A DNA stretch of 64,000 nucleotides from a virus (Duplodnaviria > Heunggongvirae > Uroviricota > Caudoviricetes). Made by a program: the position numbers. Below are positions 60,001 through 63,000 of the stretch, one piece after another. Location: the IMG/VR virus record IMGVR_UViG_2939521961_000006; one strand, 5' to 3'. Position 1 is the stretch's first letter, and the number at the start of each line of letters is the position of its first letter.

Positions 60001-63000
60001 TGGCGGAAAATGGCGAGTTTAAGCCGTGGGATGGTCAGGAATCTGGCAAGGCTGTTTATCTGACCTCGTACCCCGTGGACACGTCGACGCAGAAATCAGC
60101 ACAGTGCTACAAGACGGGGATATTCAATATTGCCGCCGTTAACTGGCCTGAGAGCGCCGACACCGACGCGAAAAAATGCGCCGCCTTTGCGGGTTCTGGC
60201 GTATCCGTTCAGCCGCTGGCGCGATAAGCAGGGGGAACGATGGCAACGAATGAAAGTATCATGACGCTACCGCTGGCGAGTAAATTTAAAGCCGAAGCGC
60301 GGGCAATGGCTGACAGAGGTTTATCAACCTACGAGGCCGTATATCAACTTAACAGCCTGGAAGAGAAGGACAAGCCGCGCGCTGATGCGATTATGGCGCT
60401 TCATGAATCTGACGACTATCAGCCGCTGTTACGTGCAATGGCAAACGTGCCTTGTATTGATGTTGATACGGCTAAAAACATCCTGAACATGACCATAGAG
60501 CAGGAACGCCCGAAGGTTGCACCAGAGCTTACCGCAGCCTTTGAAAACTTTATGGACATGCACAGCCCACAAGCCGTATCAGCTGGCATGGCATACGATG
60601 GCAGAAACCCGGGCGATGACGGCGACATCGATCGCATACTGAAAACCATCTGAGACAAGGCCGGAGAAATCCGGCTTTTTTGCGGGTCCTTTCCGGCATA
60701 TGGACCTGTTACGGGGCGGAGACCTCGCGGATTTTCGCTATTTATGAGCCTTTTCAGGGGGGGGGTGGTGGTTTTGTTGTTTGATCTATCTTTATGAATG
60801 AAAAGGGAAAGATGCAAGCAATACACCAACCTGAAGCAGTAATTAAGTTGGTGTATTAATGAAATCTCATCTGATGAACAAAAAAAACATGGCGAAAAGC
60901 TGCCGTGTAAGTGCGACAGCGTTCGACAAGTGGGGAGTAACTCCCGTTGAGCGTAAAGGCCGTGAGGCGTTTTATGATGTTGCCAGCGTGATAGAAAATA
61001 GGGTTAACAATGCAATTAGCCAGCTTATAAACGACAAAGGCGAGATTGACGATGATGAACTTTTACGAGTCAGGATCAGATTACTGACAGCACAGGCAGA
61101 GGCGCAGGAACTTAAAAACGATCGCGATCGCGGTGACGTGATTGATACTGAGTTTTGCCTGTACGCGCTTTCAAAGCTGGCGAGTCAGATTTCATCAATC
61201 ATGGACATCCTCCCGCTTACTATGCAAAGGAGCTTCCCACAGATTACCCCCGCCATGCTGGACAGGCTTAAAAGGGAAGTGGTTAAAGCCTGTAATGCCA
61301 GTGCCAGAGTTGCCGACAACCTCCCACAGATACTGGCTGATTACTTGAAAGAAACAACCGGAAACGTACCGGAAAAGTTGCTACAGAAGAAAGGCGAGTA
61401 ACAGACGCGCAATTATTGAACAAAAATGAGAAAGGATCTGATAATGGCATTTTCTGGCTAAAATGCCTCGTGTCAGATCCTTTCTTTTTTTAATATTTTC
61501 ATTGTTAAACAGTCTGTTACAGAGAAGAAGATCGGATCTGACTTTTGCCGGAAAATTCTCATAAACAGATAAAAACCGCGAGGTCGCCGCCCCGTAACGG
61601 GCCATAATTCCAGGAAGGACCCGACGACACCAGACTATCAGAGCGATGGGGGCACAATGACAGAAGCCGAACTACTGGGATTAATCCGCCGCGTCGCCGG
61701 AATCAGCCAGCAGCATGACGAACAGGCCACACAGCCGGACAGCGTGACCGCTGAAAATTATGTGCGTGTTGTAGCGGAAGTGATGCGCCGTGATGGTATA
61801 GAACTTAATGGCGTTGATATGCGCAACATACGGAACCGCGTTCTTGAAATGCTGGCCTACAATCGCCGCGTTGAACTGTATCGGGAGAAAGAAAAAATAA
61901 CGTACCACTGGAAGAAGCCGGAACGGCTGCGGCGGTAACTTGCTGATATTCCCGATAACGCAAAATTGCGCTGGCTACATCCCTCACATCTGAGGACTGT
62001 TAACCAGAAGGCCGGAATATATTCACAAACTACGAAATTTTCGTAGTTTAATTAATGGTCAGATTAATCGCTAACCCGCTGATATTTTCGGAAACCTCAA
62101 TTTGAGGAAGTCGGAAGCGTCACCCTTCATATTCTGAATGGTCATAATGACCACGCAGACCATCAAGGCAACCACAACGAACATCGTTACGGTTGGAGCT
62201 TTTACCCCACTGGGGGAAAGGTATTACGATAATCATAACACCTACCGAACAGGTAAAACCCACCAGCCTGATTAACAGTTAACCGGAAAAAAAATCCGGT
62301 AGCCCCGTTATGGGGATCCCCATATCGACATTAACGCCCCTCATGAATTGGTGCGCTTCCCCCTGGAAAGATTACCCGCCTGTATATTTCTTGTGTCTAT
62401 TTGTTCCACGTTGTTTCATACAGTGCACCGAACGGTGTAGTTAATGGTGTAGTCAATTTGCTGTTTTTAGCACTTTTTGCAGTGTGTGTTGTTTAATTAA
62501 ATCAATGGGTTGCCTTGCTGTGGTGATAAAAGGACATATTTATTCATCTTTCGGCGCAGAATGCTGGCGACCAAAAATCACCTCCATCCGCGCACCGCCC
62601 AGCATGCTCTCTCCGGCGACGATTTTACCCTCATATTGCTCGGTGATTTCGCGGGCTACCGCCAGCCCTACACCTTGCCCAGGGCGTAAAGTATCAACCC
62701 GTTGACCACGGTCGAAAATGACCTCTCGCTTGCTTAATGGAATACCGGGGCCATCATCCTCGACCACAATATAGAGATGCTCGTCGGTTTGCCTTGCAGA
62801 AATTTCGACAAACTCGAGGCAATATTTACAGGCATTATCCAGCACGTTGCCCATCACCTCGACAAAATCGTTCTGCTCACCGACAAAGCTGATCTCTGGC
62901 GAAATATCGAGAGAGATATTGACCCCTTTGCGTTGATACACTTTGTTCAGCGCTGAGGTGAGATTGTCCAGCAGTGGGGCGACCGGATGCAGCTCGCGGC

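What the first reader, a model, noticed from the sequence alone, without database searches (positions are those of the whole stretch)
60708..61600. Nu1-like terS gene bracketed by two inverted cos-like sequences
A sequence matching lambda cos with one mismatch in the 12-nt cohesive-end core lies 110 bp upstream of the terS-like gene, and a second copy with an exact GGGCGGCGACCT core lies inverted 170 bp downstream. The inverted repeat extends about 50 bp on each side. Two oppositely oriented cos-like sites flanking the specificity subunit is unusual; one could be the packaging site and the other a decoy, a recombination relic or a helper-interference element.
Basis: seen in the sequence. Interest (0 to 1): 0.6.

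Follow-up and report, generated by a model that had tools for sequence, protein, structure and literature searches.

The report
Satellite island's two-cos packaging module
This is the DNA-packaging module of a known type of E. coli phage satellite (an EcCICFT073-family PICI), whose two inverted lambda-type cos sites are already published; here they flank a complete small-terminase gene instead of the known Rpp adaptor.

Summary
GGGCGGAGACCT lies at 60714-60725 (+) and GGGCGGCGACCT at 61581-61592 (-). They sit inside 76-nt inverted arms that flank a 180-aa Nu1-family terS gene.

The arrangement is not unusual. The locus is the right end of a 10.9-kb PICI between roxA and phoQ (OI-51/CP-933C type). 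It is syntenic with EcCICFT073, whose cos1 and cos2 flank rppA in the same way and were tested experimentally in 2018 and 2019. In this window the slot holds a full-length TerS with an N15-like DNA-binding domain.

Comparison with 80 related loci and 5,426 E. coli genomes adds four points:
- cos1 carries an N15-like single R3 block that stays constant with TerS.
- cos2 carries a complete phage cosB (R3-I1-R2-R1). Its R class varies (three phage classes) on identical terS backgrounds.
- EcCICFT073 cos2 is 97% identical to the cos of PhiR12 phages.
- The segment between the cos sites occurs naturally in both orientations, and some islands lack cos2.

Best reading: cos1 is the site recognised by the island's TerS, and cos2 is a second, helper-type packaging site. 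Verdict: a new member of a known kind, of moderate interest, because the published question of why two cos sites exist becomes testable.

The parts
51526..51600 (.). attL of the island. It is a direct repeat of attR with core CGGTGTAGTTAATGGTGTAGT.
   Evidence: A 75-nt direct repeat, 76% identical, with spacing of 10,858 bp.
51601..52851 (+). Tyrosine integrase of the island.
   Evidence: Pfam Arm-DNA-bind_3 plus Phage_integrase. Annotated as an integrase in the identical genome record.
53217..53405 (+). AlpA-family regulator.
   Evidence: Pfam Phage_AlpA at 5.4e-17.
55473..56873 (+). RepA-family helicase (replication module).
   Evidence: Pfam AAA_25 at 2.4e-43. Annotated 'helicase RepA family'.
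58824..60653 (+). Three genes just upstream of cos1: a lambda E-like major capsid gene, a D-like decoration gene and a 137-aa ORF.
   Evidence: Pfam Phage_cap_E at 2.2e-50 and HDPD at 1e-17. The 137-aa ORF has a weak PHROG match to the C-terminal part of head maturation protease.
60684..60690 (+). cosQ of cos1 (GGGTCCT), 30 nt before the nick.
   Evidence: Read from the sequence. Alignment to the lambda right end.
60714..60725 (+). cosN of cos1. The cohesive-end core is GGGCGGAGACCT, a C7A variant.
   Evidence: The variant is shared by loci L009-L013 and by the record NZ_CP074781.
60764..60786 (+). Putative R3 of cos1 (GGTGGTGGTTTTGTTGTTTGATC). The core TTGTTGTTTGATC matches N15 R3 TTGTTGTTTAATC at 12 of 13 positions and lies 10 bp farther from cosN. 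There is no I1, R2 or R1.
   Evidence: The block is nearly invariant across terS islands. The N15 R3 position is taken from PMC9026076.
60859..61401 (+). terS: a full-length Nu1-family small terminase of 180 aa, with an N15-like DNA-binding domain and a PhiR5_1-like C-terminal half.
   Evidence: pN/pS is 0.20 over 22 unique alleles.
61423..61441 (-). R1 of the cos2 cosB (TCAGATCCTTTCT).
61473..61491 (-). R2 of the cos2 cosB, inverted relative to R3 and R1 (AGAAAGGATCTGA on the cos2 strand).
61492..61524 (-). AT-rich spacer at the position of the lambda IHF site I1.
   Evidence: Alignment register with lambda, phage 21-type and SerU-LTIIb cos. IHF binding was not tested.
61525..61542 (-). R3 of the cos2 cosB (GTCAGATCCGATCTTCTT), at about bp 50-67 from the cos2 nick. 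Lambda R3 is at bp 50-65.
61581..61592 (-). cosN of cos2, exact GGGCGGCGACCT.
61616..61622 (-). cosQ of cos2 (GGGTCCT on the minus strand), 30 nt before the nick.
61657..61938 (+). Conserved 93-aa ORF of unknown function, the last gene of the island.
   Evidence: PHROG phrog_1561 at 2.7e-58. Present in EcCICFT073.
62384..62458 (.). attR of the island.

Best explanation
The locus is the packaging module of an EcCICFT073-family phage-inducible chromosomal island (PICI) of 10,858 bp, integrated between roxA and phoQ. The island has no large terminase, portal or tail genes, so it must be packaged by a lambda-type helper phage (inferred).

Proposed mechanism, all steps inferred:
1. The island's full-length TerS binds, through its N15-like winged-helix domain, the single R3-like block of cos1.
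2. Its Nu1-like C-terminal tail recruits the helper's gpA-type TerL.
3. TerL nicks cosN1 and packages rightwards through terS, past the inverted cos2, which is not read as a terminator in that orientation, to the next correctly oriented cos1 at which the head is sufficiently full. Four island units (43.4 kb) would suit a lambda-sized head.

cos2 is a second, independent lambda-type cos with a complete phage cosB (R3, an I1-like spacer, R2, R1) of a different recognition class (CAGATCC, as in phage SerU-LTIIb). It most likely lets helpers of that class package the island with their own unmodified terminase, in the opposite direction.

Shown here: the anatomy, the homologies, the co-variation of cos1 with the cassette gene, the swapping of cosB classes at cos2, and natural inversion of the segment. 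Shown by others on the sister island: both cos sites are functional.
For: Family and site:
- The island has the same site, gene order and inverted cos pair as EcCICFT073.
- The published cos1 and cos2 sequences map to those two arms.
- In EcCICFT073 both sites support transfer, cos1 is required, and only the double deletion abolishes transfer.

TerS:
- It is full-length Nu1 family.
- Residues 1-50 are 57% identical to N15 gp1 and 32% to lambda Nu1. Residues 111-167 are 53% identical to PhiR5_1 Nu1.
- Alleles are under purifying selection, with pN/pS of 0.20.

cos1:
- Its cosB follows the cassette gene. It is one type with terS and another with rpp.
- Within terS islands the R3-like block and the TerS recognition region are essentially invariant.

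cos2:
- Its cosB aligns in register with phage cosBs.
- Three R classes occur behind one and the same TerS domain. The terS 4-fold divergence between class A and class B islands can be 0.000 while the cosB differs at 47% of positions.
- Class C aligns to phage 21 cos over bp 1-166 at 79.5%.
- EcCICFT073 cos2 is 97.3% identical over bp 1-147 to the cos of PhiR12 phages, where it precedes their Nu1 and A genes.
- SerU-type cosB-terS prophages exist in 38 genomes.
Against: - No experiment exists on any terS-type island. Two TerS-encoding islands, which I did not compare with this one, were not mobilised by their resident prophages.
- Deleting cos2 in EcCICFT073 raised transfer rather than lowering it, though only lambda and phi80 were tested.
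- Some terS islands lack cos2 altogether, so it is dispensable.
- The R3-like block of cos1 lies 10 bp farther from cosN than in N15, and lambda is sensitive to that spacing.
- cosN1 carries a central C7A change of unknown effect.
- The EcCICFT073 cos2 R class (CATGTCCGG) is not that of its known resident helper, phage 4 (CATGTCGG).
- The best phage match to this window's cos2 cosB is only about 70-76% identical.
Confidence: 0.6

Rival explanations
1. cos2 is a decoy or interference site. It draws the helper's own terminase onto island DNA, or provokes unproductive cleavage, so lowering helper packaging. It does not serve as a productive island packaging origin.
For: cos2 has a complete phage-type cosB. 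In EcCICFT073, deleting cos2 increased island transfer, so cos2 carries a cost under lambda and phi80. Cutting at both sites would sever the first 867 bp of a cos1-initiated substrate (inference from the geometry).
Against: A cloned EcCICFT073 cos2 supports plasmid transfer, and the cos1-deleted island still transfers until cos2 is also removed. cos2 keeps cosQ at the correct spacing, and cosQ is needed only for productive termination. A terminase that initiates at cos2 on an island concatemer would package island DNA, which is parasitism rather than a pure decoy.
Confidence: 0.15
2. cos2 is a non-functional relic of the recombination that brought a phage cos-terS or cos-rpp segment into the island.
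For: Some terS islands have no cos2 (L033, L041, L050, L051, L060, L068) or only a stump (L086, L065). Deletion and fusion derivatives exist, namely the 524-bp gene-less type and the L024 fusion ORF.
Against: cosN2 is an exact 12 of 12 match in nearly all loci. cosQ and all three R elements are kept in register. Within each class, cos2 diversity is below the 4-fold synonymous diversity of the adjacent terS: 0.063 against 0.100 and 0.010 against 0.039. Whole cosB classes have been swapped in, which is gain rather than decay. cos2 is functional in EcCICFT073.
Confidence: 0.12
3. The inverted cos arms exist to invert the segment. On this reading the module is a switch that flips terS (on or off relative to the island operon) and exchanges which cosB faces which flank.
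For: Natural inversions occur in all three cassette types. The gene-less 512-bp segment is 99.6% identical as a reverse complement between two groups of loci with the same flanks. terS is inverted in 5 genomes, confirmed by annotation in two of them, which carry different cos2 classes and sit at different integration sites. rppA is inverted in 15 genomes. The outer arms show gene conversion.
Against: Inverted alleles are rare: 5 genomes against 484 that match the direct-orientation query. No invertase gene is present in the island. Inversion does not bring terS behind the phage-type cosB. The arms are explained by their cos function alone.
Confidence: 0.08
4. The locus is simply a decayed lambdoid prophage remnant, as it is annotated in O157 genomes (cryptic prophage CP-933C), with no packaging function left.
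For: Historic annotation as a cryptic prophage (PMC3378721). It lacks most morphogenesis genes.
Against: The organisation is that of a PICI: int, alpA, a replication module, transcription in one direction, and att repeats. The sister island is induced, replicated and transferred at high frequency. terS is under purifying selection.
Confidence: 0.05

Closest known systems
EcCICFT073 packaging module (cos1 - rppA - cos2), E. coli CFT073 (Fillol-Salom 2018, 2019)
   Same: It has the same chromosomal site (roxA/phoQ) and the same gene order: int, alpA, replication genes, SSB, PerC, capsid E-like, D-like, the 137-aa ORF, cos, the specificity gene, an inverted cos and the 93-aa ORF. Its inverted arms are 77 nt at 82% complementarity, with cosQ and cosN of lambda type.
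   Different: - The slot holds a 180-aa full-length Nu1-family TerS rather than the 144-aa RppA. The two are 21-24% identical, and Rpp proteins are 30-40 residues shorter at the C-terminus, so they probably lack a TerL-binding domain.
- The cos1 cosB differs: GGTGGTGGTTTTGTTGTTTG here against CACCACCACCAC.
- cos2 belongs to a different R class: CAGATCC here against CATGTCCGG.
- cosN1 carries C7A.
Phage N15 cos and gene 1 (TerS)
   Same: N15 gp1 is the best phage match to the TerS: 44% identity overall and 57% in the DNA-binding domain. The cosB consists of a single R3-type block with no I1, R2 or R1. The core TTGTTGTTT(A/G)ATC matches at 12 of 13 positions.
   Different: The block lies 10 bp farther from cosN. 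The cohesive end is lambda-type rather than N15's GGGCGGCGTCCG. No TerL gene follows. The C-terminal half of the protein resembles PhiR5_1 Nu1 more than N15 gp1.
Canonical lambdoid cos (lambda, phage 21, PhiR12, PhiR5_1, SerU-LTIIb)
   Same: cos2 has cosQ at -30, cosN, then R3, an AT-rich spacer, inverted R2 and R1, in the same register as lambda. Its R sequences nearly match those of SerU-LTIIb.
   Different: No terS follows R1. Instead cos2 faces the 3' end of the island's terS. Overall identity to any phage in the collection is only about 70-76%.
SaPI small terminase (TerS-S) of pac-type staphylococcal islands
   Same: It works alike, by inference: a satellite-encoded small terminase redirects the helper's large terminase to the satellite's own packaging site.
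   Different: That system uses headful pac packaging and an unrelated TerS family, and it has a separate inhibitor, Ppi. Here packaging is cos-type with lambda cohesive ends.
SaPIbov4, a satellite with two putative cos sites
   Same: It is a satellite island that carries two cos sequences (mentioned in PMC6092414).
   Different: It comes from a Gram-positive host with unrelated cos sequences. I did not examine their orientation or function.

Membership tests
Gram-negative PICI (EcCICFT073 family) | Integrase at one end and flanking att direct repeats at a dedicated chromosomal site | tested here: met
   The integrase is at 51601-52851. attL and attR lie 10,858 bp apart. The site (roxA/phoQ) is the same as for EcCICFT073.
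Gram-negative PICI (EcCICFT073 family) | AlpA-type regulator plus its own replication module, with all genes transcribed rightward | tested here: met
   Phage_AlpA at 5.4e-17. RepA-family helicase and SSB. All annotated island genes but one small ORF are on the + strand.
Gram-negative PICI (EcCICFT073 family) | About 10-15 kb, with no lysis, tail, portal or large-terminase genes | tested here: met
   The island is 10.86 kb. The annotation of the identical record lists none of these genes.
Gram-negative PICI (EcCICFT073 family) | Helper-phage-dependent induction, replication and high-frequency transfer | not testable with these tools
   Shown only for EcCICFT073. Two TerS-encoding islands were not mobilised by their resident prophages.
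Lambda-type cos site | cosQ heptamer about 30 nt upstream of a 12-nt cosN core | tested here: met
   Both sites have GGGTCCT at -30. cosN matches 12 of 12 at cos2 and 11 of 12 at cos1.
Lambda-type cos site | cosB with R3 - IHF site - R2 - R1 | tested here: met
   Met for cos2. IHF binding itself was not tested. Not met for cos1, which has only a single N15-like R3 block.
Nu1-family small terminase (PF07471) | Profile match above the curated threshold, over the full length | tested here: met
   Pfam scores 81.3 bits against a cut-off of 30. PHROG phrog_57 covers residues 1-174.
Nu1-family small terminase (PF07471) | C-terminal tail that binds a gpA-type large terminase | tested here: inconclusive
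   The tail aligns with those of lambda, N15 and PhiR5_1. Binding cannot be tested with these tools.
Rpp (redirecting phage packaging) proteins | 139-154 aa, homologous to RppA/B/C, lacking the TerL-binding tail | tested here: not met
   The protein has 180 aa and is 21-24% identical to RppA in alignment. It gives no sequence hit to any PDB chain at E values up to 0.01, and RppC does not appear even at E values up to 10.

The most novel reading that the evidence does not exclude
The inverted cosQ-cosN arms are more than two packaging sites. They may act as portable recombination arms around a packaging-specificity cassette.

The internal fragment released by terminase cuts at both sites carries the same 12-nt overhang at each end. 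It could therefore be re-joined in either orientation. Alternatively it could be exchanged through about 30-bp homologies by RecA or phage Red.

That would explain three observations: the natural inversions, the gene conversion of the arms, and the wholesale swapping of cosB classes and of terS or rpp genes between islands and helper phages. On this reading the satellite's helper range evolves by shuffling modules.
Probability: 0.3. Interest if true: 0.65.

Novelty: new member of a known kind. Interest (0 to 1): 0.4.

Why it matters
[quoted passage not shown] A later analysis from phage-packaging specialists discussed only cos1.

The comparison made here gives a concrete, testable answer. cos1 follows the island's own specificity protein, whether TerS or Rpp. 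cos2 is a genuine phage cos of a different and exchangeable recognition class. For EcCICFT073 it is 97% identical to the cos of PhiR12 phages.

If this is right, these widespread islands hedge between hijacking a helper's terminase and simply mimicking another helper's genome. The 1,401-bp query across this module is covered at 80% or more in 484 of 5,426 complete E. coli genomes, including O157:H7 genomes, where the island family (OI-51) carries the virulence regulators RgdR and PerC. The answer would bear on their host range and on the spread of those genes.

Tried and rejected
- **Is the gene an Rpp?** Rejected on length, 21-24% identity and the absence of any PDB sequence hit.
- **Is the 93-aa ORF RgdR?** No. 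RgdR is the 99-aa DUF4222 protein at 55177-55476, the homologue of C1493.
- **Is the neighbouring prophage (window 1 to about 43 kb) the helper?** Unlikely. Its terminase is Terminase_2 plus a 553-aa TerL, not Nu1/gpA, and the window holds no other lambda-type cosN.
- **Relatives in one-genome-per-species contigs:** the search found none.
- **Promoter and terminator scan of 60200-62500:** no more hits than in shuffled sequence, so uninformative.
- **Could inversion between the arms restore a phage-like cosB-terS order?** No. After inversion R1 still abuts the 3' end of terS.
- **Does the cos2 class match a co-resident prophage?** I could not cross-tabulate whole genomes with these tools. SerU-type prophages occur in only 38 genomes, and the EcCICFT073 cos2 class differs from that of its resident helper. 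Simple co-residence matching is therefore not supported.
- **ssDNA fold of the whole segment:** it only re-shows that the arms pair.
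Full report
**Observation**

The window holds exactly two matches to the lambda cohesive-end core at one mismatch or fewer. GGGCGGAGACCT lies at 60714-60725 (+) and GGGCGGCGACCT at 61581-61592 (-). Chance would give 0.32 matches.

The two cores lie inside inverted arms at 60683-60758 and 61548-61623. The arms are 76 nt long and 79% complementary.

Between the arms is one ORF, 60859-61401, of 180 aa. It matches Pfam Phage_Nu1 at 7.9e-23 and PHROG terS phrog_57 at 2.4e-51 over residues 1-174. Both arms also carry the lambda cosQ heptamer GGGTCCT exactly 30 nt before the nick. 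The gaps are 133 nt and 179 nt rather than the 110 and 170 reported.

**Context**

The module is the right end of a 10,858-bp island bounded by 75-nt direct repeats at 51526-51600 and 62384-62458. The island sits between roxA and phoQ. It encodes:
- an integrase
- AlpA
- a RepA-family helicase
- SSB and PerC
- a DUF4222 protein, the RgdR homologue
- a lambda E-like capsid protein and a D-like decoration protein
- a 137-aa ORF and a 93-aa ORF

All annotated island genes except one small ORF are on one strand. There is no large terminase, portal, tail or lysis gene. This is the organisation of Gram-negative PICIs. The island family is the one known in O157 as O-island 51, CP-933C or Sp7.

**The arrangement is already published for the sister island**

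E. coli CFT073 carries EcCICFT073 at the same site with the same gene order. It has the same inverted cos pair, with arms of 77 nt at 82% complementarity. There the pair flanks the 144-aa gene c1503, rppA. The cos1 and cos2 sequences printed in Figure S1A of PMC6739421 map to the upstream and the inverted downstream arm respectively.

Experiments by that group showed the following:
- Both sites support phage-mediated transfer.
- Deleting cos1 strongly reduces transfer by lambda and phi80.
- Deleting cos2 increases transfer.
- Only the double deletion abolishes transfer.
- The RppA-TerS heterocomplex recognises the cosB of cos1 and not that of cos2.

[quoted passage not shown] A later analysis by Murialdo and Feiss treats only cos1 and never mentions cos2. 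I found no later paper in the library that addresses cos2.

**What differs in this window**

*The specificity gene.* The slot holds a full-length Nu1-family TerS, not an Rpp.
- Its best phage relative is N15 gp1, at 44% identity over 90% of its length.
- Residues 1-50, the DNA-binding domain, are 57% identical to N15 gp1 and only 32% to lambda Nu1.
- Residues 111-167 are closest to the Nu1 of phage PhiR5_1, at 53%.
- RppA aligns at only 21-24% identity. Rpp proteins are 30-40 residues shorter at the C-terminus than lambda-like TerS.
- No PDB chain, RppC included, is found by sequence search.
- Among 39 intact alleles, 22 of them unique, pN/pS is 0.20. The gene is therefore maintained by selection.

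Fillol-Salom et al. noted that some E. coli PICIs 'encode TerS' and that two such islands were not mobilised by their resident prophages. I did not compare those islands with this one. I found no mechanistic work on this subtype.

*cos1.* Downstream of cosN1 there is no R2, R1 or I1. There is a single block, GGTGGTGGTTTTGTTGTTTGATC (60764-60786). Its core matches the N15 R3 region at 12 of 13 positions (TTGTTGTTTAATC in N15, where R3 is placed at bp 48-60). The block lies 10 bp farther from cosN than in N15.

Across the related loci the cos1 cosB follows the cassette gene. There is one type with terS and another with rpp. Within terS islands the block and the TerS recognition region (RVSATAFDKWGVTPVERKGRE) are essentially invariant. 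I therefore infer that cos1 is the cognate site of the island TerS.

The C7A change in cosN1 is shared by a small clade. Other islands carry G6T, G6A or A9G variants. Central cosN positions therefore seem tolerant of change, but the effect of C7A is untested.

*cos2.* The 179 nt between the terS stop and cosN2 are filled by a complete lambda-style cosB on the minus strand:
- R3 at 61542-61525
- an AT-rich spacer at the I1 position
- inverted R2 at 61491-61473
- R1 at 61441-61423

These elements are in the same register as in lambda. The R sequence (CAGATCC-TTCT) is neither lambda's nor phage 21's. It nearly matches the R3, R2 and R1 of the LT-IIb prophage SerU-LTIIb. SerU-type cosB-terS prophages occur in 38 complete E. 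coli genomes.

**Comparative survey**

I collected 80 loci from IMG/VR that carry the 137-aa gene. The cassettes between the two cosN cores fall into several classes:

| Spacing between cosN cores | Content | cosB types |
|---|---|---|
| 864-868 bp | terS, 180 aa | cos1 constant (N15-like); cos2 in three classes, see below |
| 739 bp | rppA, 144 aa | cos2 of CATGTCCGG type |
| 759-760 bp | 146-aa rpp | cos2 with an N15-type R3, GAGGTTGTTGTTTAAT, at bp 48-63 as in N15 |
| 524-530 bp | no gene | one CATGTCCGG-type cosB and one N15-type cosB, abutting |
| 625 bp | fusion ORF (L024) | cos1 CATGTCCGG type; cos2 N15-like |

Within terS islands cos2 occurs in at least three R classes:
- Class A, CAGATCC: 13 loci, including this window.
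- Class B, CATGTCGGTAC / CATGTCGTTTCT: 9 loci. It is 82% identical to PhiR5_1 over bp 1-117.
- Class C, the phage 21 class: 2 loci. It is 79.5% identical to phage 21 cos over bp 1-166 and 83.5% to phage IdasGreatGrand.

The same TerS domain sequence, identical over residues 1-60, is found with class A, with class B and with no cos2 at all. The 4-fold synonymous divergence of terS between class A and class B islands can be 0.000 while their cosB differs at 47% of positions. The cos2 cosB is therefore a module that has been swapped independently of terS.

The most telling result concerns EcCICFT073. Its cos2 is 97.3% identical over bp 1-147 to the cos of the PhiR12 phages, where it sits directly upstream of their Nu1 and A genes. 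The PhiR12-type TerS itself appears as the cassette gene in island L083, behind the same cosB at the cos1 position. So cos2 is a genuine phage cos of a class that the published work did not compare. That work looked at lambda, phi80 and phage 4.

**cos2 is dispensable, and the segment is invertible**

Several terS islands have no cos2. In them the 93-aa ORF starts 10 bp after the terS stop (L033, L041, L050, L051, L060, L068). L086 and L065 keep only stumps.

The segment between the cores occurs in both orientations in nature:
- The gene-less 512-bp segment is 99.6% identical as a reverse complement between two groups of loci whose flanks are 97-100% identical.
- I built an artificial query from the flanks plus the reverse-complemented interior. 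It finds 5 complete genomes in a single full-length piece for the terS type. Annotation confirms terS on the opposite strand in two of them, which sit at different integration sites and carry different cos2 classes.
- The same test finds 15 genomes for the rppA type.
- By contrast, 484 genomes cover at least 80% of the direct-orientation query across this module.

The outer arm of cos1 is sometimes converted to the cos2 version. In one island both cores share the same G6T variant. Both observations indicate exchange between the arms. No invertase gene is present.

**Mechanism proposed**

Shown here:
- the anatomy
- the TerS family and its mosaic make-up
- cos1 co-varying with the cassette gene
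- cos2 being a phage-type, exchangeable cos
- natural inversion

Shown by others, on the sister island: both sites function, and cos1 is the main one.

Inferred for this island:
- TerS binds the cos1 R3-like block and recruits a helper gpA-type TerL through its C-terminal tail.
- Packaging runs rightwards and ignores the inverted cos2.
- Four units (43.4 kb) would fill a lambda-sized head.
- cos2 allows helpers of the CAGATCC class to package the island with their own terminase, in the other direction.
- When both sites are active they should interfere, because a cut at cos2 truncates a cos1-initiated substrate after 867 bp. This could explain why deleting cos2 raised transfer with non-cognate helpers.

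Rival readings are that cos2 is a decoy, a relic or part of an inversion switch, or that the whole locus is a dead prophage. They are weighed in the rival-explanations section of this report.

**Novelty and verdict**

A specificity gene bracketed by two inverted cos sites is a published hallmark of this PICI family. This locus is a further member, of the uncharacterised terS-bearing subtype. Three points appear to be unreported in the library searched:
- cos2 carries a canonical phage cosB that is exchanged between recognition classes.
- EcCICFT073 cos2 is nearly identical to the PhiR12 cos.
- The segment bounded by the two cos sites inverts in nature.

These points turn an open question into specific experiments. 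I rate the interest as moderate (0.4).

Noticed in passing
L003 16120-16309 (EcCICFT073 cos2) and L091 2501-2647 (phage PhiR12_1): The published cos2 of EcCICFT073 is 97.3% identical over bp 1-147 (cosN through the R elements) to the cos of the PhiR12 phages, where it directly precedes their Nu1 and A genes. The original papers said no phage cosB could be recognised in the island.
   Followed up: yes
L046, L070, L071, L059 versus L047, L049, L062, L072 (IMG/VR loci); L089 and L090 (E. coli PM4-5 and 2014C-4587): The segment between the two cosN cores exists in both orientations in nature. This holds for the gene-less type, for terS (5 complete genomes) and for rppA (15 genomes). No invertase gene is present.
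   Followed up: yes
L033, L041, L050, L051, L060, L068; L086; L065: Some terS-type islands lack cos2 entirely, with the 93-aa ORF starting 10 bp after the terS stop. Others keep only a half-cosN stump or an interrupted cosB.
   Followed up: partly
L083 (cassette ORF of 169 aa) and L024 (fusion ORF): There is a third cassette type: a PhiR12-type TerS behind a CATGTCCGG-class cosB at the cos1 position. L024 carries an apparent fusion of that TerS N-terminus to an Rpp C-terminus.
   Followed up: partly
window 58824-60653: The island, like EcCICFT073, encodes lambda E-like capsid and D-like decoration homologues. It also has a 137-aa protein with a weak match to the C-terminal (scaffold-like) part of head maturation protease. 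It has no portal or protease, and the published description says the family lacks capsid morphogenesis genes.
   Followed up: no
window 60743-60769: A run of nine G (60752-60760) followed by GGT repeats lies between cosN1 and the R3-like block. Among alleles it varies by substitution (G6 to G11, variable GGT repeats), but its total length is almost always the same. This suggests constrained spacing.
   Followed up: partly
L042 (both cos sites GGGCGTCGACCT); L023, L080, L082, L025: Natural cosN variants occur at central positions 6, 7 and 9. In L042 the same G6T variant is present in both cos1 and cos2, which suggests concerted evolution of the two arms.
   Followed up: no
window 58018-58047, 58382-58411, 60655-60684: There are three copies of a near-identical hairpin plus T-run (GGCCGGAG(A/C)AATCCGGCTTTTTT) after successive island genes. 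The last copy abuts cosQ of cos1.
   Followed up: no
window 1 to about 43000, with terminase genes at 19741-21962: A large lambdoid prophage lies next to the pot/pepT/roxA genes. Its terminase is of the Terminase_2/TerL type (not Nu1/gpA), and it has no lambda-type cosN, so it is probably not a helper for this island. Duplicate 272-aa and 100-aa ORF pairs at 6161-7317 and 9670-10826 look like two IS copies.
   Followed up: partly
H97 and H98 (E. coli F765 and O157:H7 DEC4E): In some O157-related genomes the terS gene is split by an IS3/IS1203 insertion.
   Followed up: no
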